From a phage, in sequence record PZ445554.1: a stretch of DNA of 64,000 nt. One strand, given 5' to 3'. The notes below the pieces were generated by a model. That model was not told the origin of the DNA, did no database searches, and worked only from the letters and a program-made list of their open reading frames with translations. Made by a program: the position numbers and the translations under genes. Positions 2,122 through 57,746 of this stretch are shown in pieces (within the stretch, counting starts at the first letter, position 1; each line of letters starts with the position of its first letter).

Positions 2122-2269
2122 TAGATAACAGCACAAATGTTAAATATGCACACATACCCTGGGCTAAAGCCTGCGAAAACACACTACTGGCATCGATACA
2201 GATAGTTAAAACACATGCTACTATCCAACAAATAAATGAAATAACTCCTAATAATTTTGCGATATTCAT
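2114..2269 (-). CDS. ac: Acriflavine-sensitivity membrane protein Ac (51 aa)
   Basis: AGGAG Shine-Dalgarno then ATG; 51 codons MNIAKLLGVISFICWIVACVLTICIDASSVFSQALAQGMCAYLTFVLLSND; size and position match T4 ac. Confidence 0.6.
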   Translation of the reverse strand: MNIAKLLGVISFICWIVACVLTICIDASSVFSQALAQGMCAYLTFVLLSND

Positions 2270-2279
2270 AGTATTCTCC

Positions 2280-2366
2280 TCAACTATTTTTAAAACCTAA
2301 AATACCAAAGTTTTTAAGATTGTCACGATAGAACTGCATCACATGTTCGTTATGGAAATTACTCAT
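2280..2366 (-). CDS. stp: Stp-like peptide (28 aa)
   Basis: Translation [28 protein letters not shown]; N-terminal 14 aa match recalled T4 Stp; ATG overlaps ndd stop (TAATG). Confidence 0.6.
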
Positions 2367-2824
2367 TAATATGCCTGCAAAACAAATTTAAAGTTATCAG
2401 CCAACATACGGTTCATTTCTTCAAGTGTTTGATACTCAGAATGATGATTACGAGTAAACGCCAAAGCTAACTGACCTTTACCAAATCCTGTCGTCAGAGG
2501 TTTCATCTTAGAAGCAGGCAGATAAAATACTGTGTATGGAACATTGTTATTTGCAATAGTACGCGCAAGCTGAGACCGACGCTGACGAATATGACTTAGA
2601 ACCGCACTGAATCCTTGCTTAGAACGCTGATTACCTACATAAAATCGTGCAGACACGCACGGATTACTAAATGGACGACCATCTAATTTACTCACTAAAA
2701 AGTAAAATCCAGGTTTAGATAAAATATCTTTATGCGGAGTTCCCAAAAACCACTCACCGCCCTTGATTGTACCAATAACAGTAGCGCCTGCATTATTCAG
2801 ATCAGTAACAGTCATATATTTCAT
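2366..2824 (-). CDS. ndd: Nucleoid disruption protein Ndd
   Basis: ORF track 168 aa ORF; true start at internal ATG ([16 protein letters not shown]) preceded by GAGGAAA Shine-Dalgarno, giving 152 aa as in T4 Ndd. Confidence 0.8.
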
Positions 2825-2884
2825 ATTAATTTCCTCTAAATTATTTTCTACTCCAAGGCCGCATGGATACACACGGCCATTAAA

Positions 2885-3100
2885 TTAATCGTCGCAGTCG
2901 ACGCTCAATTCCCAGAATTCTTCTACGGTATAAGTTTCAGTATCATTTTCAATACAGAAACGTTCATTACTATTGTTTGCTAAAGTAGCATTAACTGTCA
3001 TTTTTTCGCTAGTGCTCTTAAGAGGTGAAATACGAATTAACTGATCACCGTTATCTAAACAAAAAATTTCACCAACTTTTACATCTTTAAAACTTTTCAT
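2885..3100 (-). CDS. Hypothetical protein (71 aa), ndd-denB interval
   Basis: ORF track; ATG at 3098-3100 (rev); GAGGTGA Shine-Dalgarno. Confidence 0.55.
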   Translation of the reverse strand: MKSFKDVKVGEIFCLDNGDQLIRISPLKSTSEKMTVNATLANNSNERFCIENDTETYTVEEFWELSVDCDD

Positions 3101-3108
3101 AATTCACC

Positions 3109-3219
3109 TCAAGGAGTATAAAATCCAAACGCAGTTGTTGACCATCCCATCCAATATGGAAAATTTGCACCAATGTAAAACATAAGAATATAAAACCAAC
3201 CGCTCAGCAAATTCATCAT
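3109..3219 (-). CDS. Small hydrophobic peptide (36 aa)
   Basis: ATG overlaps upstream stop (ATGA); MMNLLSGWFYILMFYIGANFPYWMGWSTTAFGFYTP. Confidence 0.3.
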   Translation of the reverse strand: MMNLLSGWFYILMFYIGANFPYWMGWSTTAFGFYTP

Positions 3220-3413
3220 TTTACACCATTCCAAATTGTTTCAACCACGGATTTTAAACCATTTTGATGAATATCAATTCCGACTACTGTCATCAAATAG
3301 ATTCCAACTACAACTGAACCTAAGGCAAAAATCAGCATGAAAATGAATAAAGCCGGAAAAATATTATCGAAAAACCATTCAATAAATGTAAAAGCACTGC
3401 GTTTACGCTTCAT
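3216..3413 (-). CDS. Small membrane protein (65 aa)
   Basis: ORF track 3216..3434; start trimmed to ATG at 3413 preceded by GAGGAAA; hydrophobic core. Confidence 0.5.
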   Translation of the reverse strand: MKRKRSAFTFIEWFFDNIFPALFIFMLIFALGSVVVGIYLMTVVGIDIHQNGLKSVVETIWNGVK

Positions 3414-3420
3414 ATTTTCC

Positions 3421-3533
3421 TCACATAAATCCAAAGTAAACGTTTAATACATCAATCATTAAAACGATTGGGAATATACTCAAAACTACTAGTATTATAA
3501 CTACATTCCATATAGCTTTAATAATCTTTTTCA
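3421..3533 (-). CDS. Small membrane protein (37 aa)
   Basis: ORF track 3421..3630 N-terminus is a translated promoter leader; real ATG at 3533 after GGAGG; MKKIIKAIWNVVIILVVLSIFPIVLMIDVLNVYFGFM. Confidence 0.4.
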
Positions 3534-3560
3534 TTTTCTGTTCCTCCGTAGTTGATAGGG

Positions 3561-3592
3561 TAATAGTACCACGGAAGAACAGTCTTGTAAAC
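3561..3592 (-). promoter_or_regulatory. T4-type early promoter
   Basis: Minus-strand GTTTACAAGACTGTTCTTCCGTGGTACTATTACC...GGAGGAACAG leader. Confidence 0.5.
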
Positions 3593-3598
3593 AACTTT

Positions 3599-3697
3599 TT
3601 AAAAATATTCGTAATAAATGTGAATACCAACTACTACCGCTGAAACCTGTGCAACCCACCACGCACAAGCAATAAGTACAGAATTCAAAATTTTCAT
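3599..3697 (-). CDS. Small hydrophobic peptide (32 aa)
   Basis: ATG with GAGG Shine-Dalgarno; MKILNSVLIACAWWVAQVSAVVVGIHIYYEYF. Confidence 0.3.
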   Translation of the reverse strand: MKILNSVLIACAWWVAQVSAVVVGIHIYYEYF

Positions 3698-4120: not shown

Positions 4121-4678
4121 TTAAATGGAAAGATACCATCCGCTGTAGTTGCTTTTTCTTACAACCTTACGAAGGTCTTCTCTATCACCGATGAACTTCG
4201 GAGTGTATTGGATGACACCTGGATGAATTTCTTTAGTGTTGAATATAATTATACAGTCAGCGACTTGATGATTTAGAATGGGCCCTAGATTTATTCCAGA
4301 ACCATATGGATACTCTCCGCTGCATCCTGTTGTCACCGAAATCCAACGTGAGTCAGTTTGATGTGTCTTAACTTCTACACGAAGCCCGCAGTATCTTGGA
4401 TGCGCCAATACATCCCATGCATATGTGTACGGATCATCGACATCTTCTTGACCTTTGTTAACATACCCGCTCAGCCAATCTGCTACAAAAAACTCTGCGT
4501 ACACAGCGATACGGCATCTTTCGATAACTTCTGCCTTATCCTGATTTGGGTTTTGTTTTAAAGAGTATCTTGCAGTATCAACAATTTTGACCTTCATTTC
4601 ACTAGTCAAGTCACTGTTCGATAGGGTAAATGTCGGAATCTGAAATAGTCTCTGTAACCCCGGATTCGTTTTCTGCAT
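4121..4678 (-). CDS. denB: Endonuclease IV DenB
   Basis: ORF track 185 aa (same length as T4 DenB); AAGGAAAG Shine-Dalgarno; adjacent to rIIB region as in T4. Confidence 0.7.
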   Translation of the reverse strand: MQKTNPGLQRLFQIPTFTLSNSDLTSEMKVKIVDTARYSLKQNPNQDKAEVIERCRIAVYAEFFVADWLSGYVNKGQEDVDDPYTYAWDVLAHPRYCGLRVEVKTHQTDSRWISVTTGCSGEYPYGSGINLGPILNHQVADCIIIFNTKEIHPGVIQYTPKFIGDREDLRKVVRKSNYSGWYLSI

Positions 4679-8565: not shown

Positions 8566-8596
8566 AATTATACCACATCCTTGTGGTAAAGTAAAC
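8566..8596 (-). promoter_or_regulatory. T4-type early promoter (GTTTAC-N17-TGGTATAAT) with palindromic spacer CCACAAGGATGTGG
   Basis: Minus-strand GTTTACTTTACCACAAGGATGTGGTATAATTAATTGG; overlaps gene 39 stop. Confidence 0.55.
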
Positions 8597-10413
8597 TACT
8601 GACTCATCCATTCTTTACGAAGGTCAGCATTATCTCCCATGAGCATTTCAAAAAGCTCTTTCCAGTTCTCAGGAAGTTTAACAACATCATATACTGGATT
8701 TTGAATCATCTCACGATATTCAGATTTTTCCAAAGAGCCAAGTCCTTTAATATAACGGATGCTATGTTTAGGTAGAGCATCTTTGGCACTCTCATATTCA
8801 GCGACTGTATAAAACCATTCTTGTTTTTTACCGACCTGAGCGATGATTACAGGAGTTTTGACAAAGCGAATTCGTCCTTGCTCAAACAATTCTGGCCAAT
8901 TACTAAAAAATCCAAGCAGAGAAGGATAAATGCTTCCTAGACCATCATGGTCAGCATCAGTCATAATAGCGATATTGTGATAATTCAAGTTTTCAGCTTT
9001 TTCACCGAGAACTAATCCAGTGATTGCGCAAATATCAAATAGTTCTTTGTTTTTAAGCATATCTGCATAAGACATACCCCAACTGTTGAGAACTTTACCG
9101 CGCAATGGATAACCACCGTGAAGTTCTTTATCACGAACATCAATAAGATATCCGATAGCCGAATCACCCTCAGTTAAAAATAATGTAGTATCAGCATCTT
9201 TACCACAAAGATTCGCTTTGATATGTTTATGAACCTTAGCTTTAGAAGCCTTTTTAGCTGCTTTAGTTTCTGCTGCTTTTTCTGCCGCCAATTTACGAGC
9301 CAAAGCAGCTTCAATAATCGGCATTAGAATTGCTTCATTATTCAAAATAGCACGTGAAATCTTTTTAGCGTCAAGTTGAATATGACTACGAATTTCGCCA
9401 AATGGAGAAGTCAAACGCTCTTTAGTTTGAGAATCAAATCGCATGTTTTTCATATCACGAACAAACATAACGATAGTCAAACATTCTTTGACACGCGCTT
9501 TAGTCACATCAATTTTGAACTTACGTTTGATTTGTGGAATAAGGTCTTCACAAATATCATCCATAACACAGTCAATGTGATGGCCACCATTCTTAGTATG
9601 AATGTTATTGACGTATGTTAATTGACGAAAACCATCCGGTGAACGACCAACCGCAATAGAACAATTTTCTTGTTCTTGAACGATAGCATGTTCATCATAC
9701 TGTCGTGCATATTTCTTAAAATTGCCCTGAACCTTTTTACCATTAAAGGTAAATTGAATATCAGGATAAACTACCGCAAGTGTCTGGAGACGATCTAGTG
9801 TAATGTCAAGATAAACTTGGGACAGCTCATTAGTTTCAAATGACATAAAATCAGGAATGAAAGTAACACGAGTTCCTTTCCATTTTCCAGGAATATCTTC
9901 CCATGATTTATTTTCCATGCCGTTTGAACAACGAACTACAATATTATTTTGACCGTCACCAGTTTCACCGACAAACATCGCAGAAAAAATGTTTGTCAAA
10001 CTAGAACCAACGCCATTCATACCGCCAGTGACGCGTTCTTTATCATCACCAAAGTTACCACCTGCTTTTGGAATAGTCCATGCAGCAACTGGACCAGGAA
10101 TTTCTTCACCGGTAGGTGTTTTAACCATCGCTTGTGGAATACCGCGACCGTTATCTTCAACTGTTACCTGATTATTTTTAATGGTAACATTAATTTTATT
10201 TGCGAATTTAAACTTAGTACGAATACCTTCATCTACTGAGTTATCGATAATTTCATCAATAAGCTTAACAAGACCAGGTACATACTGAACACTTTCCCAT
10301 TTACCAAACAGAAAGCGCTCATGCATTTCATTAGCAGAAGAGCCAATGTACATGCCACTACGCTTTTTGATATGTTCAATATCGCTCAGAATTTTAATTT
10401 CATTCTTAATCAT
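8596..10413 (-). CDS. 39: DNA topoisomerase II large subunit gp39, single uninterrupted gene (605 aa)
   Basis: ORF track 606 aa from GTG; ATG one codon in (MIKNEIKILSD); GyrB-type ATPase motifs (EDNGRGIP); C-terminal region that T4 encodes in gene 60 is fused in frame. Confidence 0.9.
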   Translation of the reverse strand: MIKNEIKILSDIEHIKKRSGMYIGSSANEMHERFLFGKWESVQYVPGLVKLIDEIIDNSVDEGIRTKFKFANKINVTIKNNQVTVEDNGRGIPQAMVKTPTGEEIPGPVAAWTIPKAGGNFGDDKERVTGGMNGVGSSLTNIFSAMFVGETGDGQNNIVVRCSNGMENKSWEDIPGKWKGTRVTFIPDFMSFETNELSQVYLDITLDRLQTLAVVYPDIQFTFNGKKVQGNFKKYARQYDEHAIVQEQENCSIAVGRSPDGFRQLTYVNNIHTKNGGHHIDCVMDDICEDLIPQIKRKFKIDVTKARVKECLTIVMFVRDMKNMRFDSQTKERLTSPFGEIRSHIQLDAKKISRAILNNEAILMPIIEAALARKLAAEKAAETKAAKKASKAKVHKHIKANLCGKDADTTLFLTEGDSAIGYLIDVRDKELHGGYPLRGKVLNSWGMSYADMLKNKELFDICAITGLVLGEKAENLNYHNIAIMTDADHDGLGSIYPSLLGFFSNWPELFEQGRIRFVKTPVIIAQVGKKQEWFYTVAEYESAKDALPKHSIRYIKGLGSLEKSEYREMIQNPVYDVVKLPENWKELFEMLMGDNADLRKEWMSQ

Positions 10414-10440
10414 CACTTATCCTCGTTTGGTTTCGGGAAT

Positions 10441-10466: not shown

Positions 10467-10483
10467 AAGGCCCGAAGGCCTTT
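10466..10483 (-). terminator. UUCG-tetraloop hairpin (AAAGGCC-CGAA-GGCCTTT)
   Basis: Perfect inverted repeat directly after stop of upstream gene. Confidence 0.5.
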
Positions 10484-10743
10484 TATTTAAAACGAATAGT
10501 TGAATCCTTAAAGAACAGCCCAGAACATACTGTTCCTTCTACTTTCTGCCCAGTAGGTCCAATAGCACGAAATCCAGTATGTTGGAAATCATTTTCAGAA
10601 CAACCAAACCAATTATATCCAGTGATTTCAATATTAGTAAAACCACTTGAAGATAAAACTTTGGTTGCATTATCAGCATCAGTACATCCTGCTAAAGACA
10701 CTGCTAATACTAATGCCGCGATAGAACGATTAATATATTTCAT
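10483..10743 (-). CDS. Putative lipoprotein (86 aa)
   Basis: ORF track 10483..10752 (GTG); ATG at 10743; signal peptide with lipobox LAGC (MKYINRSIAALVLAVSLAGCTD). Confidence 0.55.
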   Translation of the reverse strand: MKYINRSIAALVLAVSLAGCTDADNATKVLSSSGFTNIEITGYNWFGCSENDFQHTGFRAIGPTGQKVEGTVCSGLFFKDSTIRFK

Positions 10744-10748
10744 AATTT

Positions 10749-11120
10749 TCACTTAAATTTAATGGCTTGAAGAAGACTAATAATTCTCAAGCGACTTCCT
10801 TCATCTTTAACTGTAAAAGAAAGAGGGTCACCAGATTTCATAGTGATAGTGCATTCAAAAGCAAAACCTTCGGGAACTTCTTCGAAGAAGTCAAATTCTT
10901 CATCATAAATTAGAACATTACTCTGAAAACTGTGAAGAATTTTTCCGTCATTTCCAGATGCTGTACTAATCATTGTAACATTATTACCTTTCATATCTTC
11001 AACGATAAATTCGCTTGTAGATATTACAGCATTAATAGAACCATTCCTATAAATAGCAGAAAATAGATATTTCTTTTCTTCACCTTCGCGAATGCGATAT
11101 TTCTTACCGATTTTAAACAT
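10749..11120 (-). CDS. Hypothetical protein (123 aa)
   Basis: ORF track; ATG at 11118-11120 (rev). Confidence 0.55.
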   Translation of the reverse strand: MFKIGKKYRIREGEEKKYLFSAIYRNGSINAVISTSEFIVEDMKGNNVTMISTASGNDGKILHSFQSNVLIYDEEFDFFEEVPEGFAFECTITMKSGDPLSFTVKDEGSRLRIISLLQAIKFK

Positions 11121-11122
11121 AA

Positions 11123-11299
11123 TTACCCTTTAAGTAAGTCGTAAAATCCGCCATTCACATGCTTAGGGGCAGAGACTAACCGAATAGCAATCCGATGACA
11201 ATCAGGACATACATCAGTATCTCTTTCAGAAATTTTCTTGATTTTTTCGTATTCTTTTGCGCAGTCTTTTGATTGACATTTATAATCATAAAGCGGCAT
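11123..11299 (-). CDS. Small zinc-ribbon protein (58 aa), not in ORF track
   Basis: AAGGAA Shine-Dalgarno then ATG; MPLYDYKCQSKDCAKEYEKIKKISERDTDVCPDCHRIAIRL; CxxC...CxxC spacing. Confidence 0.5.
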   Translation of the reverse strand: MPLYDYKCQSKDCAKEYEKIKKISERDTDVCPDCHRIAIRLVSAPKHVNGGFYDLLKG

Positions 11300-11301
11300 A
11301 A

Positions 11302-11715
11302 TTATTCCTTAAAGTGAGCTTTCAACATCTGATACAAGGACCATGCCTGTTCATCATTTTCAATAGTAACTTTCATTACAGGGAATTTAGATTGATCAGT
11401 TATCGGTGCAGATTCTTCCTGCTCTTCAGCTGCCTGGTATGGATTTTCAACTTCATTAAAGAATTCAGCTTCATTCGATGAAAGCCAAATAAAATCTTCA
11501 TCCAAAATATCTTTACCAGAAGATAGTACTAAATTTCCAGCAAATGACATAATTTTAATAGGACGCCCAAGAGCATCCACATCTAAAATTTTAAAAGGAT
11601 GCATACCTAAACGGCGTGCATAGATTCCGTTATCAGTATGGTCTTTAATAAAATTTTCTTGAGCTTGTTTATTTTTAAATTGATACCATTTATTAACTTC
11701 AAATCTAATAGCCAT
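11302..11715 (-). CDS. Hypothetical protein (137 aa); position corresponds to T4 goF (tentative)
   Basis: ORF track; ATG at 11713-11715 (rev). Confidence 0.6.
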
Positions 11716-11933
11716 TAATAAATTTCCTTCCAGTAAGTTGTGCCATCTTCAGTGATTTCACGGAATACACCATAAATTGGTTGTTTATCACCGACTTTCT
11801 CATATACATAAACCGAAGTCAAGTGAGTAAACTTGATAGTGTGTTCCTTTTGAACTACTACCAAATCTGGATCGAATAATACATCTTCAAATTCATCATT
11901 AGTGCAATTCTGAACAATTTTACGTTTCATCAT
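11715..11933 (-). CDS. Hypothetical protein (72 aa); position corresponds to T4 cef (tentative)
   Basis: ORF track; ATG at 11931-11933 (rev). Confidence 0.55.
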
Positions 11934-12033
11934 AATTTCCTCATTAATTGAACATTGGAGCGATGCGTTTCAGAAGAGTATCAGCGCACCTTTAACGAAT
12001 TATCCATTTTATTCTTCAAGTTGTTTTCTGTAT

Positions 12034-12072
12034 CAGTAGTTGATATTGATATAGTACCATAATCAACTACTG
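12034..12072 (-). repeat. 11 bp inverted repeat (CAGTAGTTGAT ... ATCAACTACTG) flanking a promoter-like TGGTACTATA box
   Basis: Read directly from sequence between motB and upstream ORF. Confidence 0.5.
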
Positions 12073-12104
12073 ATGTATATAGTTTTATGAAAAAATTTTA
12101 AACT

Positions 12105-12596
12105 TTATGCATAGCGAGCTTTGCTGTAGTGTTTAATCCAACTTTCAGGAATGACTTTGTATGTTCCTAAAAATACCGCGTTGTATAACTTAACGCCATC
12201 TTCTACCCATTGATCAGTAATGTATGCACACATAGCGCGAGTACGCTGAGGAAGTGGTTGTCCACCTTCGGTAAATTCAAACTCATAAGGAGCAATGAAC
12301 TTGATAGCTTGACCAAGTTTCCACTTAAAGTCTACACCTACATGCGAAGTATCAATCGTTTCAATTCCTTTAGCAGGAACAGCTTTCAAAAACGCAGGCT
12401 CAAGAAATTTCCATCGAACATAACCAAACTGGGGCTTAGACATTCCATCTTTAGCAATGATACGTACTTTTACTTCAGAATCTTCATCTTTAACACCGTG
12501 TTTAAGCTGAATGCTTACAACTTCGACCAATTTTCCTGCTGCTTTAGAACGGGATTTATCAGATACACGAGCAATTTCACCGATATTAATATTCAT
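12105..12596 (-). CDS. motB: MotB-like protein (163 aa)
   Basis: ORF track; ATG at 12594-12596; length and position match recalled T4 MotB; paralogous C-terminal domain shared with next gene. Confidence 0.55.
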   Translation of the reverse strand: MNINIGEIARVSDKSRSKAAGKLVEVVSIQLKHGVKDEDSEVKVRIIAKDGMSKPQFGYVRWKFLEPAFLKAVPAKGIETIDTSHVGVDFKWKLGQAIKFIAPYEFEFTEGGQPLPQRTRAMCAYITDQWVEDGVKLYNAVFLGTYKVIPESWIKHYSKARYA

Positions 12597-12640
12597 AATT
12601 ATCTCTCACTTGTTAAAAAGATTTTATACTCCACAGGACC

Positions 12641-12670
12641 ATTATACTCTGGTCCCAAGAGTTTGTAAAC
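12641..12670 (-). promoter_or_regulatory. T4-type early promoter (GTTTACA-N18-TATAAT)
   Basis: Minus-strand GTTTACAAACTCTTGGGACCAGAGTATAATGG. Confidence 0.5.
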
Positions 12671-13173
12671 TAGCTTACACGAACATTAATCACTGCGCTA
12701 CGAGGAACTACAGAGTATTCTCCAGCATGAACTACGTTCAGAAGTTCAACGCCATCTTCAATCCACTGGTCAGTTACCCAACCACCGACCGGATTCGCGA
12801 ATGGACGACGAATGTAAACCGCCTTACACAACAAATCAGTCGGGTCTTCAATTTTTTCAACTGGTGCCACATACATAGAAACTAAATCCATATCAATATG
12901 GAATTTTTCCTGTTCTTCTTTTTCAATTTCTGTCAATAGACTAAAATCTTTTTCATAAATAATAAGCGATGACACCATTCCATAATAGTTTCTAATTTCA
13001 ATATACATCATGCCGATAAGAATTCCGCTATTAACACTAATAACAATAAAAGGATATCCGCCAGTTAAAGCAAGAAGTTCACAAAACTTATTATGAGCTG
13101 TATTAGACAGTACCGGAAAATTCTTAATTTCATCAAATTTTTTCAATTGATAAACAGCATTATTTTTAATCAT
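12670..13173 (-). CDS. Hypothetical protein (167 aa), MotB paralog
   Basis: ORF track; C-terminus VTDQWIEDGVELLNVVHAGEYSVVP parallels motB ITDQWVEDGVKLYNAVFLGTYKVIP. Confidence 0.6.
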   Translation of the reverse strand: MIKNNAVYQLKKFDEIKNFPVLSNTAHNKFCELLALTGGYPFIVISVNSGILIGMMYIEIRNYYGMVSSLIIYEKDFSLLTEIEKEEQEKFHIDMDLVSMYVAPVEKIEDPTDLLCKAVYIRRPFANPVGGWVTDQWIEDGVELLNVVHAGEYSVVPRSAVINVRVS

Positions 13174-13183
13174 AATTTTCTCT

Positions 13184-13684
13184 TTAATCTAAGGTAATAA
13201 AGCCTTTTAATTCGGCATGCGATTTGCGGAACATTACTTGATGTCCGCCAATGATAACTTGGTCATCTGGTACTTCGTATACAGCAAGATAAAATCCTTT
13301 CGAAGCTAATTCTTCACGCTCTTCTCGTATGAACCATCTCATCATATCATATTCGCTAGCGAAAGCAAAATGATAAAGAGCTATAAACCATCCTGGAATA
13401 TGATATTCTACTCCAACATAATCTTTCTTGAACTTAGTATTAATTACTATATTAGCGTTTTTAACTAATAGTTTATCTTCGTGTGGTAAAGGAATTCTTT
13501 TATTATTATCGCTATGATGCATAAAATTAGGTCTGTCATAACCTACGTGTAATAGCCACTCTTCGCTCCATGAATCTATTATACTCCTGTACGGCGTTAT
13601 TTGAACACAAAGATTTCGACGTATTGTTATAGCATCTTCATAATTAAGAATACTAAACGATGATTCAACACGATAAATTTTCAT
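13184..13684 (-). CDS. Hypothetical protein (166 aa)
   Basis: ORF track 13184..13723; start moved to ATG at 13684 after GAGGATAA. Confidence 0.55.
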   Translation of the reverse strand: MKIYRVESSFSILNYEDAITIRRNLCVQITPYRSIIDSWSEEWLLHVGYDRPNFMHHSDNNKRIPLPHEDKLLVKNANIVINTKFKKDYVGVEYHIPGWFIALYHFAFASEYDMMRWFIREEREELASKGFYLAVYEVPDDQVIIGGHQVMFRKSHAELKGFITLD

Positions 13685-13709
13685 TTTATTATCCTCAGTA
13701 GCTATGGTG

Positions 13710-13741
13710 TTATAATACCACAACTAACCGAGGAAGTAAAC
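13710..13741 (-). promoter_or_regulatory. T4-type early promoter
   Basis: Minus-strand GTTTACTTCCTCGGTTAGTTGTGGTATTATAAC. Confidence 0.5.
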
Positions 13742-13747
13742 AACTTT

Positions 13748-14431
13748 TTATCGTTTTGTTGGAAGAGATAGAGGATCGCAATCTTCCTCTGATGGAGCAT
13801 CTTCAAGACCCATAGCATATCGCAAAGCGTACTTCATCATCAGGATGTCTTTCGCACAGTCATGAATAGAATCATGTGCAACGAATCCATCTAAAGTTCC
13901 CTTTGGAAGAGGACATGTGGTCATATCACGAACAAGCAGAAGTGCTTCAATTCTGGTACGAATATCACGCTGATTCCAGAATTTACATGGTTCTAACTTA
14001 AATGTGTCAAGCTCATTCTCAGATACACCATTAAGGCGTTGAATATCACGAATGAGATCGACTAAAATTGGAAAATCAAACGACATTCCACGACACCAAC
14101 CTTGAGATTTCCAAGGATCGATATTATGCGCATTGATATAATCATTAAATTTTGCAATACCATCGATGGTGCTTACATCTTCATCTGATGGTGCAATATT
14201 TTTTCGAGCTTCAGGGGATTGATTCTTCCACCATTCGATAGTACTTTTAGTAAAAAGACGATGTCCTTTTTGGCTTTTTAAATCAAATTTGATTTTAATG
14301 CCACGTGAAACTAATTCATCAAATGTTTCAACGACTTCTGGATTAGGGTCAAAAGCAATTACAGCTAAATCAATAACAGCTGCCTTTTCGCCGCTTCCCA
14401 TTGTTTCAAAATCTATAATAAAATCAAACAT
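13748..14431 (-). CDS. dexA: Exonuclease A (DexA), DEDD-type 3-5 exonuclease
   Basis: ORF track 227 aa; N-terminal FDFETMG exonuclease motif; length matches T4 DexA. Confidence 0.85.
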   Translation of the reverse strand: MFDFIIDFETMGSGEKAAVIDLAVIAFDPNPEVVETFDELVSRGIKIKFDLKSQKGHRLFTKSTIEWWKNQSPEARKNIAPSDEDVSTIDGIAKFNDYINAHNIDPWKSQGWCRGMSFDFPILVDLIRDIQRLNGVSENELDTFKLEPCKFWNQRDIRTRIEALLLVRDMTTCPLPKGTLDGFVAHDSIHDCAKDILMMKYALRYAMGLEDAPSEEDCDPLSLPTKR

Positions 14432-15164: not shown

Positions 15165-16484
15165 TCACACATAAAATACATCATAACGACCACGAGTAAC
15201 ACCAACATAAAGAAGTTGTTGAGCCAATTCAGCATCTGCATAATGAATACAAGGCGTATAAATGAAAGCACGGTCTACAGACATGCCCTGTGCTTTATGG
15301 AATGTTGATGCAGGAAGTGCTTTCACTTTACTAAACTGTGATTTAGCATCCCAAAAATCACTCCATGGAGCTTTTCCGCCTTTGTTCCAATTTTTATAAG
15401 TTTCTGCCGTTTTACCTAAAAATAGGTTAAACTTATACAGTTCTTCATCAGATGAAATTATTTTAATCTTTTCACGATAATATTCATCATCGCCATAAGT
15501 TTCTACTGTTAAATCCCAGTGACGAATTAGATATTCTCCAGGAACACCACGAGCTTTAACAAAGGTTGATGTATACTCTGCTTCTATAATACGAACTAAT
15601 TGTCCGTTGTTAAAAATAATTTCTGACACAGGCTTTCCATCAATTTTATATGTTTTAATTAATGGTTCCTGCATTACAATAATTTCACCGACAATAAAAT
15701 CTTTATCAGTTTCAAAAATCTTTTTACGAATAATGCTATTTAACTTATCAACAGATTTATTCGTAAATGCCATTACGCGATTTTCAAACAAATCATCTAG
15801 AGATTTGACGATTGAAAAATAATTTACCATAAAATCGCGTAAAGCGGTATCACCAGTAAATCCACGTACTCCATGCCCGTCAACAACTTTATCATAAATC
15901 CACTTACCGCTACGAACGTCAGTAGCTACATCAATAATAGGAGCATTACTGCGTTTAACTTCAGTGAGTTCACACTGATAAAAATCTTTATGTGTAAAGA
16001 ATGGACTGATATAAGCAGTATTTTCTCCTGGGTCAACAGGTCTAATTTGCTTATTATCACCTATTCCAATTATAGTACACCACGGCGGGATAGTTGAAAG
16101 CAGAATTTTAAATAGCTTTCTATCATACATTGACACTTCGTCGCAGATTAATACCCTGCATTTAGCTAAATCTGGTACTTCCTTCTGCTCGAAGAGGACA
16201 TTTTCTTCATATGTTACTGGGTTAATTTTAAGAATACTATGAATAGTACTCGCTTCTTTCCCTGATAGTTTTGAAAGAATCTTTTTAGCCGCATGCGTAG
16301 GAGCTGCTAAAATAATACCAGTTTCACCCGTAGATATTAAAGCTTCAATGATGAACTTAGTAAGAGTAGTCTTACCAGTACCGGCAGGTCCATTAATAGT
16401 TACATGGTGTTTCTTTTCTTTAATAGCCTTCATAACAATGTTAAAGGCATTTTTCTGGCCTTCGGTCAAATCATCAAATGTCAT
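15165..16484 (-). CDS. dda: Dda DNA helicase (SF1)
   Basis: ORF track 439 aa; Walker A GPAGTGKTT; length equals T4 Dda. Confidence 0.9.
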   Translation of the reverse strand: MTFDDLTEGQKNAFNIVMKAIKEKKHHVTINGPAGTGKTTLTKFIIEALISTGETGIILAAPTHAAKKILSKLSGKEASTIHSILKINPVTYEENVLFEQKEVPDLAKCRVLICDEVSMYDRKLFKILLSTIPPWCTIIGIGDNKQIRPVDPGENTAYISPFFTHKDFYQCELTEVKRSNAPIIDVATDVRSGKWIYDKVVDGHGVRGFTGDTALRDFMVNYFSIVKSLDDLFENRVMAFTNKSVDKLNSIIRKKIFETDKDFIVGEIIVMQEPLIKTYKIDGKPVSEIIFNNGQLVRIIEAEYTSTFVKARGVPGEYLIRHWDLTVETYGDDEYYREKIKIISSDEELYKFNLFLGKTAETYKNWNKGGKAPWSDFWDAKSQFSKVKALPASTFHKAQGMSVDRAFIYTPCIHYADAELAQQLLYVGVTRGRYDVFYV

Positions 16485-30359: not shown

Positions 30360-30393
30360 TTCATTCTCCAAATCCGTATCAGTTGATAGTTGT

Positions 30394-30423
30394 ATAGTAC
30401 CATGGAAGAACAGGGATGTAAAC
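30394..30423 (-). promoter_or_regulatory. T4-type early promoter with conserved leader
   Basis: Minus-strand GTTTACATCCCTGTTCTTCCATGGTACTATACAACTATCAACTGATACGGATTTGGAGAATG. Confidence 0.55.
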
Positions 30424-30511
30424 AGTTTTGTGAAAAAATTTTTAGTGAATTCAAAGGGTCCAGAATCATCTGTTTTTCATAAGTATAGATTTATATTACT
30501 TGTATGAAAAG

Positions 30512-56683: not shown

Positions 56684-57652
56684 TTATTTCAGAAGAGTAA
56701 CCTCAGCAATTTCTTCCCAACCGTTTTTGTCGGTCATAATAAAGTCAGCAAGATAAAGTGCAGTACGCAGTGAAACATTGCGTAAACGATTAACATTGAC
56801 TTTCATCCATGATAATGCTTTATAAGTTTCTTCATCAGAAAGACCGCGCTTTTGCATCATGTCAGTTGAAAGAATAACATCTTCAACCCTGACCATAATT
56901 TCTTCATTAGTGTGAACACCCAAATCCAAATAAACTGAGCGGGACACTAATGCTTGTAAATGTGGAGCAAGTTTAGTACCACGGTCTAATTCGCGGTCAA
57001 TATCAACGTTTGTGATAAAAACAATTGTTCCTTTAAATTCAAACTCACGGTCAATGCCTTTTTCTTCTAAGTAAGAAGATGCAGTACTCCAGCAGACTTT
57101 ACGGGTCTCTCCAGTGTCCAGAGCAGCTTTCAGAAGATTAAGAATGTCCATATCAGAGAAAACATCCACATCATCAATCAAAAGGACAGAATTCTCTTCA
57201 CGATTATTCCAAAGCTGCTCATAAAGACCGATACCAGAGATTTTACCATTAATGCTTTTATACTCAATGTATCCAATATCATTTGCTTTATTTAAAGCTT
57301 TATCTAAAGAATACGTTTTACCAATACCCGCCGCACCAGAGATAATTAATGAACGAATGTTTCCGTTAATAATACCATTCGTCATCATTCCCATAACATT
57401 AAATCTTTTATTAATGCGGGTTTTCATATCTTCATATGATTCTTTAACTTCTTCAACTTTTACGCCATCATATGAAATGTCTGATTTGTAAACCCAAACA
57501 CCGCGACGTTTACCGTCAATTTCAACAAAAACTTTACCATCTCCTTGTGCATCTACCGGAGCATTATCTGGGAACCATTCGCCTAAGAGCTCAAAAGTTC
57601 CAGAGATTTCTTTACCGAAGTAGATACCCTTATTGATAGTTACAGTTTTCAT
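56684..57652 (-). CDS. P-loop NTPase (AAA-like ATPase), unknown function
   Basis: ORF track 56684..57664; ATG at 57652 after conserved leader; Walker A GAAGIGKT, Walker B VLLIDDVD. Confidence 0.65.
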   Translation of the reverse strand: MKTVTINKGIYFGKEISGTFELLGEWFPDNAPVDAQGDGKVFVEIDGKRRGVWVYKSDISYDGVKVEEVKESYEDMKTRINKRFNVMGMMTNGIINGNIRSLIISGAAGIGKTYSLDKALNKANDIGYIEYKSINGKISGIGLYEQLWNNREENSVLLIDDVDVFSDMDILNLLKAALDTGETRKVCWSTASSYLEEKGIDREFEFKGTIVFITNVDIDRELDRGTKLAPHLQALVSRSVYLDLGVHTNEEIMVRVEDVILSTDMMQKRGLSDEETYKALSWMKVNVNRLRNVSLRTALYLADFIMTDKNGWEEIAEVTLLK

Positions 57653-57685
57653 TTTATTCTCCAAATCCGTATCAGTTGATAGTTG

Positions 57686-57716
57686 TATAGTACCATAAAG
57701 CTTTATGCTTGTAAAC
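57686..57716 (-). promoter_or_regulatory. T4-type early promoter with conserved leader
   Basis: Minus-strand GTTTACAAGCATAAAGCTTTATGGTACTATACAACTATCAACTGATACGGATTTGGAG. Confidence 0.55.
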
Positions 57717-57746
57717 CGTTTTGTGAAAAATTTTTGAAATAAAAAA

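What the first reader, a model, noticed from the sequence alone, without database searches (positions are those of the whole stretch)
12105..13173. motB and its upstream neighbour share a paralogous C-terminal domain
MotB-like 12105..12596 and 12670..13173 both end in a conserved motif (ITDQWVEDGVKLYNAVFLGTYKVIP versus VTDQWIEDGVELLNVVHAGEYSVVP), indicating tandem duplication with N-terminal divergence.
Basis: seen in the sequence. Interest (0 to 1): 0.4.

Follow-up and report, generated by a model that had tools for sequence, protein, structure and literature searches.

The report
MotB and MotB.1 share C-terminal domain
Two neighbouring early genes of this T4-like phage, motB and motB.1, do share a small, related C-terminal domain attached to unrelated N-terminal domains, but this was already published in 2021, so the finding is real and ordinary.

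Summary
The window is a Tequatrovirus (T4-like) genome. ORF 12105-12596(-) is MotB. ORF 12670-13173(-) is MotB.1.

The shared C-terminal motif is real and far beyond chance:
- BLASTP E = 9e-10.
- Shuffle test z = 15.
- Profile-profile probability 98.6%.

The homologous region is about 52-65 residues, longer than the 25 residues quoted. Independent AlphaFold models give it the same five-strand small beta-barrel in exact register.

The N-terminal halves are not detectably related. MotB has a KOW-like barrel. MotB.1 has a GoF-type LSm-like barrel, which also resembles a GoF paralog at 10749-11120. Relatives include KOW + MotB.1-type-CTD hybrids and single-copy genomes. Duplication plus N-terminal domain replacement therefore fits better than simple divergence.

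Patterson-West et al. 2021 (PMC7827196) already reported the shared CTD and proposed duplication, so the finding is already known.

Three by-products:
- The T4 reference sequence alone carries an extra G that truncates MotB.1 (119 aa) inside the shared motif. Thirteen other T4-named records listed lack it.
- Published MotB.1 experiments used the 119-aa form.
- The CTD looks SH3/Tudor-like rather than OB-fold.

The parts
12105..12596 (-). motB CDS (163 aa; the stop codon is included at the low end)
   Evidence: Pfam PF17613 full length, 312.9 bits. phrog_1671. Annotated as motB in T4 and relatives at the syntenic position.
12393..12596 (-). MotB N-terminal KOW-like small beta-barrel (aa 1-68), basic (pI 9.6)
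12108..12320 (-). MotB C-terminal shared domain (aa 93-163), with a longer beta1-beta2 hairpin than in MotB.1
   Evidence: hhalign aligns MotB 93-157 with MotB.1 114-165. AF2 strands 97-108, 117-132, 135-142, 145-150, then 3-10 helix 151-153, then strand 154-157.
12641..12669 (-). Early-promoter-like site (TTTACA, 17 nt spacer, TATAAT; 11 of 12 matches) between motB.1 and motB
   Evidence: Promoter scan. The sequence is conserved in T4 and JK08. Consensus match only; function is not shown.
12670..13173 (-). motB.1 CDS (167 aa), acidic (pI 4.95)
   Evidence: phrog_2333, 275.5 bits. Annotated as motB.1 at the syntenic position in T4. 98% identical to P0001. Charge.
12919..13173 (-). MotB.1 N-terminal GoF-type LSm-like barrel (aa 1-85)
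   Evidence: AF2 strands 7-10, 42-49, 55-61, 67-73 and 80-83, plus helix 24-37. hhalign to ORF 10749-11120 gives E = 4e-6. PMC12152347.
12853..12918 (-). 66-nt (22-codon) linker segment containing the motif HIDMDLVSMYVAPVEK. It is absent from T4 and from the 143-145-aa forms, and the sequence TTGAAAAA occurs at both edges.
   Evidence: DNA alignment. The same D-x-D-[VL]-x-S-x-Y motif precedes the CTD or sits at the N-terminus in relatives. AF2 pLDDT is below 50 for residues 87-107.
12673..12846 (-). MotB.1 C-terminal shared domain (aa 110-167)
   Evidence: hhalign. Pfam motB partial hit. AF2 strands 118-121, 129-139, 142-149, 152-157, then 3-10 helix 158-160, then strand 161-163. These are in exact register (+7) with MotB.
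10749..11120 (-). GoF paralog whose N-terminal module resembles the MotB.1 NTD. It is context for the domain-shuffling reading, not part of the shared CTD.
   Evidence: HMM of the MotB.1 NTD gives E = 3.5e-4 over the full length. hhalign probability 87%, E = 4e-6. phrog_622, the same family as GoF.

Best explanation
motB and motB.1 are adjacent early genes of a T4-like phage whose products share one homologous C-terminal domain. The domain spans about 52 residues in MotB.1 and about 65 in MotB, and corresponds to the C-terminal part of Pfam PF17613. It is a five-stranded small beta-barrel whose most conserved element is the acidic beta2-beta3 hairpin [TS]DQW[VI]E[DE]G-x-x-L-x-N-x-V.

Shown:
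- The homology and its extent.
- The identical predicted strand register in the two models.
- The restriction of the domain to Tevenvirinae.
- The presence of both copies in most enterobacterial T4-like genomes.
- The lack of any detectable relationship between the two N-terminal domains.

Inferred (evolution): the ancestral gene was KOW-NTD + linker motif + CTD, as in the single-copy Kosakonia and Klebsiella phage genes. It duplicated in tandem. One copy (motB) kept the basic KOW NTD while its CTD diverged. The other (motB.1) kept the ancestral-type CTD and exchanged the KOW NTD for a GoF-type LSm-like module, by recombination within this plastic early region.

Inferred (function): the CTD is a common docking module, more likely a protein contact surface than a DNA-backbone binder, because its conserved surface is acidic and MotB.1 as a whole is acidic. 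It carries different N-terminal effectors. In MotB this gives the published non-specific DNA binding and H-NS/StpA association. In MotB.1 the function is unknown.
For: Homology:
- BLASTP E = 9e-10.
- Shuffle test z = 15.
- Pfam partial hit above the cut-off.
- hhalign 98.6%.

Structure:
- Two independent AF2 models (pLDDT 78 and 79) place beta2 to beta5 and the 3-10 helix at the same aligned positions.
- Foldseek against BFVD links the MotB.1 model to MotB (E = 1.9e-6) and to GoF (E = 1.7e-3).

Unrelated NTDs.

Link between the MotB.1 NTD and the GoF family: and PMC12152347.

Hybrids and extra-module variants.

Single-copy hybrid at the syntenic site in Kosakonia phage 305.

Distribution:
- 782 phage records and 1450 places by tblastn.
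- 365 records carry the whole cef-to-dexA block.
- Only 35 representatives among 1.84 billion proteins match the CTD profile.

Charge: MotB pI 9.3 against MotB.1 pI 4.95.

Published MotB biology: PMC6070864 and PMC7827196.
Against: - The polarity of the evolutionary scenario (single-copy hybrid = ancestral) is not established. It could be a secondary fusion or loss.
- Both NTDs are small beta-barrels, and Foldseek aligns MotB.1 to MotB over the full length. Extreme divergence of one ancestral NTD therefore cannot be excluded on structural grounds.
- HHpred in PMC7827196 assigned the CTD to the OB-fold.
- No experiment separates the roles of the NTD and CTD in DNA or H-NS binding. The docking-module function is inference only.
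Confidence: 0.8

Rival explanations
1. Whole-gene tandem duplication followed by divergence of the N-terminal half beyond recognition.
For: The genes are adjacent and co-oriented. Both NTDs are predicted small beta-barrels. Foldseek aligns the MotB.1 model to a MotB over about 190 columns, E = 1.9e-6.
Against: The NTDs show no sequence signal: z = -1.1 and hhalign 0.2%. In contrast, the MotB.1 NTD does match a GoF-family ORF (E = 4e-6), and GoF/Frd.2 according to PMC12152347. Hybrids exist with a MotB-type NTD and a MotB.1-type CTD, and other variants have the LSm-like module inserted once or twice.
Confidence: 0.15
2. The shared CTD is an OB-fold (cold-shock-like) nucleic-acid-binding domain that gives both proteins DNA or RNA binding. 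This is the reading of the 2021 paper.
Confidence: 0.2
3. The similarity reflects recent gene conversion between two otherwise unrelated neighbours, not an old duplication.
For: The strongest conservation is concentrated in one short stretch. A 27-nt DNA match (85%) exists between 12192-12218 and 12748-12774.
Against: DNA similarity is limited to 27 nt at 85%. Across families the CTDs are only about 35% identical. Each family keeps its own diagnostic residues (EDGVKLYN against EDGVELLN) in hundreds of genomes. Intermediate sequences exist in distant relatives.
Confidence: 0.03
4. Chance or compositional similarity.
For: None beyond the shortness of the motif.
Against: as above.
Confidence: 0.01

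Closest known systems
T4 MotB / MotB.1 pair as described by Patterson-West et al. 2021 (Viruses 13:84, PMC7827196)
   Same: Same genes, same synteny (cef - motB - motB.1 - motB.2 - dexA), and the same observation: a conserved CTD, different NTDs, and a suggested duplication. That paper found both genes in T4 and 40 other phages.
   Different: This phage's MotB.1 is 167 aa, with an intact CTD and a 22-residue linker motif. The T4 reference MotB.1 is 119 aa and ends inside the shared motif. I find the CTD SH3/Tudor-like rather than OB-fold.
GoF / MotB.1 / Frd.2 LSm-like fold family (Kim et al. 2025, PMC12152347)
   Same: The MotB.1 NTD has the bent five-stranded sheet. It shows a sequence link to a GoF-family ORF in this window.
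   Different: That paper deals with the NTD only and used the 13.8-kDa T4 form. The domain shared with MotB is the other half of the protein.
SH3-like small beta-barrels: Tudor, KOW, chromo, EF-P domain I, UvrD/PcrA C-terminal Tudor, CarD
   Different: No sequence relationship. Z stays below 8. It is unresolved which domain of the models drives the hits. No aromatic cage or RNA-polymerase contact has been shown.

Membership tests
Pfam PF17613 (motB, modifier of transcription) | HMM score at or above the 25-bit gathering cut-off, over the full-length profile | tested here: met
   MotB (12105-12596) scores 312.9 bits over profile positions 1-162.
Pfam PF17613 (motB, modifier of transcription) | The same cut-off, applied to MotB.1 | tested here: met
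   32.8 bits, but only profile positions 117-153 (MotB.1 residues 125-161). MotB.1 is a member through the C-terminal domain only; the N-terminal two thirds do not match.
MotB.1 family (phrog_2333; 'Category 2' of PMC7827196) | Full-length profile match, and a position immediately upstream of motB | tested here: met
   275.5 bits over residues 1-166. Synteny as in T4, JK08 and SHFML-11.
GoF/Frd.2/MotB.1 LSm-like NTD family (PMC12152347) | N-terminal bent five-stranded antiparallel sheet | tested here: met
   AF2 strands 7-10, 42-49, 55-61, 67-73 and 80-83, pLDDT about 72-89.
GoF/Frd.2/MotB.1 LSm-like NTD family (PMC12152347) | Detectable sequence relationship to GoF-family proteins | tested here: inconclusive
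   Significant to the GoF paralog ORF 10749-11120 (hhalign E = 4e-6, probability 87%; phrog_622). Not significant to GoF itself as a single sequence (E = 0.095). Foldseek to GoF of phage VR7 gives E = 1.7e-3.
OB-fold, cold-shock DNA-binding domain (SCOPe b.40.4.5), claimed for the MotB CTD | beta1-beta2-beta3-helix-beta4-beta5 topology and structural neighbours among OB/CSD proteins | tested here: inconclusive
SH3-like small beta-barrel (Tudor/KOW/chromo) | Five strands with RT-like loop, two tight hairpins, a 3-10 helix before beta5, and structural neighbours of that class | tested here: met
Nucleoid-associated / H-NS-modulating DNA binder (the MotB function) | Non-specific DNA binding, co-purification with H-NS/StpA, toxicity on overexpression | not testable with these tools
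   Known for T4 MotB from PMC6070864 and PMC7827196. This MotB is about 85-90% identical to the T4-type sequences. Nothing is known for MotB.1.

The most novel reading that the evidence does not exclude
The shared CTD is a hetero- or homo-dimerisation or common-target docking module, so that the acidic MotB.1 (pI 4.95) pairs with or competes against the basic, toxic DNA binder MotB (pI 9.3) and tunes its action on H-NS-bound DNA. The published 'no phenotype' results for MotB.1 would then be uninformative about this role. The heterologous assays used a reference-derived 119-aa form that lacks most of the CTD, and the knock-out tests were done only under standard laboratory conditions.
Probability: 0.12. 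Interest if true: 0.5.

Novelty: already known. Interest (0 to 1): 0.15.

Why it matters
The core observation adds nothing to Patterson-West et al. 2021. Three secondary points are practically useful to people working on T4 early genes.

1. **T4 reference sequence.** The reference (AF158101.6 / NC_000866.4) alone carries an extra G that cuts MotB.1 inside the conserved motif. The other T4-named records listed encode, or are annotated with, a 143-aa protein with a complete CTD. Experiments designed from the reference may have studied a truncated protein.

2. **Evolution of the locus.** The locus is a clear small example of module exchange among KOW-like, LSm-like and MotB-CTD barrels in the plastic early region.

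3. **Fold of the CTD.** The CTD is probably SH3/Tudor-like and has an acidic conserved face. This redirects hypotheses from DNA binding towards partner docking.

Tried and rejected
- **Third copy of the CTD.** I searched the six-frame translation of the window with a CTD HMM. Only the two known copies were found; the next best hit had E = 0.12.
- **NTD-to-NTD homology.** Nothing was found between the MotB and MotB.1 NTDs.
- **MotB.2 as a third paralog.** There was no similarity to the MotB.1 NTD profile or to the CTD HMM.
- **Sequence search of the PDB.** Both proteins and the CTD profile gave only noise, E >= 0.18.
- **'Two places per record' in the megablast result.** I suspected a second copy of the locus. 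It is a roughly 80-nt early-promoter-like intergenic repeat, not a gene copy.
- **CTD profile against 1.84 billion representatives.** No relatives were found beyond this small phage family. Weak multi-stretch hits to 600-2700-aa proteins (P0243, P0244, P0247-P0249, P0251) match only positions 18-52 several times. I took these to be unrelated hairpin repeats and did not verify them.
- **Model coordinates.** I could not obtain them, so no CTD-only superposition or fold search was done.

Full report
**What the window is**

The region matches Tequatrovirus genomes at up to 99% identity (Shigella phage SHFML-11). All genes here lie on the minus strand. The order, from annotated relatives, is:
- dda: 15165-16484
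- dexA.2 and dexA.1
- dexA: 13748-14431
- motB.2: 13184-13723
- motB.1: 12670-13173
- motB: 12105-12596
- cef: 11715-11933
- goF: 11302-11715
- 39.2-like: 11123-11299
- two further small ORFs
- gene 39: 8596-10416

Its 'upstream neighbour' is MotB.1 (phrog_2333).

**Check of the observation**

The two quoted motifs are present at MotB residues 125-149 and MotB.1 residues 133-157.
- BLASTP with compositional adjustment gives 16/29 identities, E = 9e-10.
- A local-alignment shuffle test gives a score of 98 against 28.7 +/- 4.6 (z = 15; 0 of 5000 shuffles reached it).
- The Pfam motB model hits MotB.1 residues 125-161 above its gathering score (32.8 against 25 bits).
- Family alignments (57 MotB.1-type and 61 MotB-type sequences) compared by hhalign give 98.6% probability and E = 8.6e-16. 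MotB.1 114-165 aligns to MotB 93-157, with an insertion in MotB between the first two strands.

An HMM of the domain finds only these two copies in the 64-kb window.

**Structure**

AlphaFold2 with these alignments gives two-domain models for both proteins (mean pLDDT 78 and 79), each with a low-confidence linker. The C-terminal domains have the same element order, and the offset is exactly the +7 of the sequence alignment:

| Element | MotB | MotB.1 |
|---|---|---|
| beta2 ends | 132 | 139 |
| beta3 | 135-142 | 142-149 |
| beta4 | 145-150 | 152-157 |
| 3-10 helix | 151-153 | 158-160 |
| beta5 | 154-157 | 161-163 |

A 3-10 helix between beta4 and beta5, two tight hairpins, and no helix after beta3 together form the SH3/Tudor/KOW small-barrel signature, not the OB-fold signature.

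Caveat: each model has two barrels and I could not search the CTD alone. The disagreement with the HHpred-based OB-fold assignment of PMC7827196 is therefore a lead, not a settled point.

**The N-terminal halves**

They are not detectably related (Smith-Waterman z = -1.1; hhalign probability 0.2%).
- The MotB NTD is basic and KOW-like (PMC7827196).
- The MotB.1 NTD was assigned to an LSm-like family with GoF and Frd.2 (PMC12152347).

In this window the MotB.1-NTD profile matches ORF 10749-11120 over its whole length (HMM E = 3.5e-4; hhalign E = 4e-6). That ORF and GoF both belong to phrog_622. Foldseek against BFVD links the MotB.1 model to MotB (E = 1.9e-6) and weakly to a GoF (E = 1.7e-3).

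**Relatives**

The CTD is confined to a small family. Only 35 representatives in 1.84 billion proteins match at E <= 1e-3, and 22 at E <= 1e-10. tblastn finds 782 phage records with 1450 places, which is typically two copies per genome. 365 records carry the whole cef-to-dexA block.

Architectures vary:
- LSm-like NTD + CTD, in 143-145-aa and 166-167-aa forms.
- A linker motif D-x-D-V-x-S-x-Y...P..P, then one or two LSm-like modules, then the CTD (180-aa and 245-250-aa forms).
- KOW NTD + linker motif + MotB.1-type CTD (P0077, P0229, P0233 and others).
- KOW NTD with intermediate CTDs (P0230, P0234, P0236).

Kosakonia phage 305 has a single KOW + MotB.1-type-CTD gene at the syntenic place, between a motB.2-like gene and cef. 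RB69 has two motB copies and a split motB.1.

I infer duplication of a KOW+CTD ancestor followed by replacement of the NTD in the motB.1 line. The polarity of these events is not proven.

**What it does**

For T4 MotB, the published results are:
- non-specific binding to both modified and unmodified DNA;
- co-purification with H-NS and StpA;
- toxicity when expressed in E. coli;
- a two-fold burst-size benefit;
- de-repression of H-NS-silenced host genes on overexpression (PMC6070864; PMC7827196).

MotB.1 is an early, non-essential protein of unknown function (PMC12152347).

In this phage MotB is basic (pI 9.3, net +6) and MotB.1 is acidic (pI 4.95, net -7). The residues conserved across both families are concentrated in an acidic hairpin, TDQW-x-E-D-G. 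I therefore think the CTD is more likely a docking or dimerisation surface than the DNA-backbone binder, and that the basic KOW NTD is the DNA contact in MotB. This is inference only.

**Comparison with the literature**

Patterson-West et al. [quoted passage not shown] The finding is therefore already known.

**A by-product: the T4 reference sequence**

In the T4 reference (NC_000866.4 / AF158101.6), motB.1 is 119 aa and ends ...TDQWIGRWR*. An extra G (ATTGGAAG against ATTGAAG) shifts the frame in the middle of the shared motif. The downstream DNA still encodes EDGVELLNVVHAGEYSVVPRSAVVAILN in the other frame.

A 57-nt probe spanning the site matches at 100% only those two records. Thirteen other T4-named records listed in the output (T4T, KJ477684-6, MT984581, OL964735 and others) lack the G. 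T4T and MT984581 annotate a 432-nt, 143-aa gene. The 143-aa protein P0019 was seen on 256 contigs, the 119-aa form on 2.

The 2025 study of MotB.1 worked from NC_000866.4 and reports a 13.8-kDa monomer. It does not mention a frameshift or truncation. Whether the G is a reference error or a private mutation of one stock cannot be decided here.

**Verdict**

- Novelty: already known.
- Interest: low.

Noticed in passing
L003 (T4 NC_000866.4) 4292-4651, equivalent to window ~12757-12762: The T4 reference motB.1 has an extra G (ATTGGAAG) that frameshifts the gene inside the conserved TDQWIEDG motif and gives a 119-aa product. Only AF158101.6 and NC_000866.4 carry it. Thirteen other T4-named records listed lack it and encode or annotate a 143-aa protein. 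Published MotB.1 work used the 13.8-kDa form.
   Followed up: yes
window 12853-12918 (-): A 66-nt in-frame segment of motB.1 encodes the linker motif HIDMDLVSMYVAPVEK. It is absent from T4 and from the 143-145-aa forms, and the sequence TTGAAAAA occurs at both edges, which suggests deletion by microhomology. The same motif recurs in different positions in relatives, and the structure model gives it low confidence.
   Followed up: partly
window 10749-11120 (-): This 123-aa ORF, not present in the T4 reference at this spot, is a second GoF-family protein (phrog_622). Its N-terminal module matches the MotB.1 NTD profile (hhalign E = 4e-6), which gives a sequence bridge between the GoF and MotB.1 NTDs.
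   Followed up: partly
window 12005-12102; also 392-468, 30381-30442, 57650-57738: An intergenic repeat of about 80 nt, containing an A/T-rich stretch, a GTTTACA-like box and TATGGTACTATA on the minus strand. It resembles T4 early promoters. The copy between motB and cef also forms a hairpin. This repeat explains the 'two places per record' in the megablast search.
   Followed up: partly
window 13184-13723 (-) (motB.2): A weak Pfam hit to the SRA (SET and RING associated) domain, E = 0.1, 13 bits, well below the cut-off. It might be worth a structure check, given that SRA domains recognise modified cytosines.
   Followed up: no
protein P0245 (43 aa): The sequence begins like MotB.2 (MKIYRVESSFSIL.YED) and continues as the MotB.1 C-terminus (GVELLNVVHAGDFSVVPRSAVVAILN). 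This looks like a deletion that fuses motB.2 to the end of motB.1 in some phage.
   Followed up: no
L007 (RB69 NC_004928.1) 2180-3618: RB69 annotates motB.1 as two ORFs (132 aa + 29 aa), again interrupted within the CTD. It also carries two adjacent motB copies, and its motB.2 lies on the other side of them.
   Followed up: partly
window 10483-10752 (-): An 89-aa ORF with a lipoprotein-like signal peptide (…LAVSLAGC…), phrog_902, function unknown. It lies between the GoF paralog and gene 39.
   Followed up: no
window 8596-10416 (-): Gene 39 (topoisomerase II large subunit) is a single 606-aa ORF here. In the T4 reference it is split into genes 39 and 60 with mobA between them.
   Followed up: no
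proteins P0243, P0244, P0247-P0249, P0251: These long proteins (600-2700 aa) match only positions ~18-52 of the CTD profile, four to seven times each. They are probably unrelated beta-hairpin repeats that resemble the GW.TD.W.EDG hairpin.
   Followed up: no
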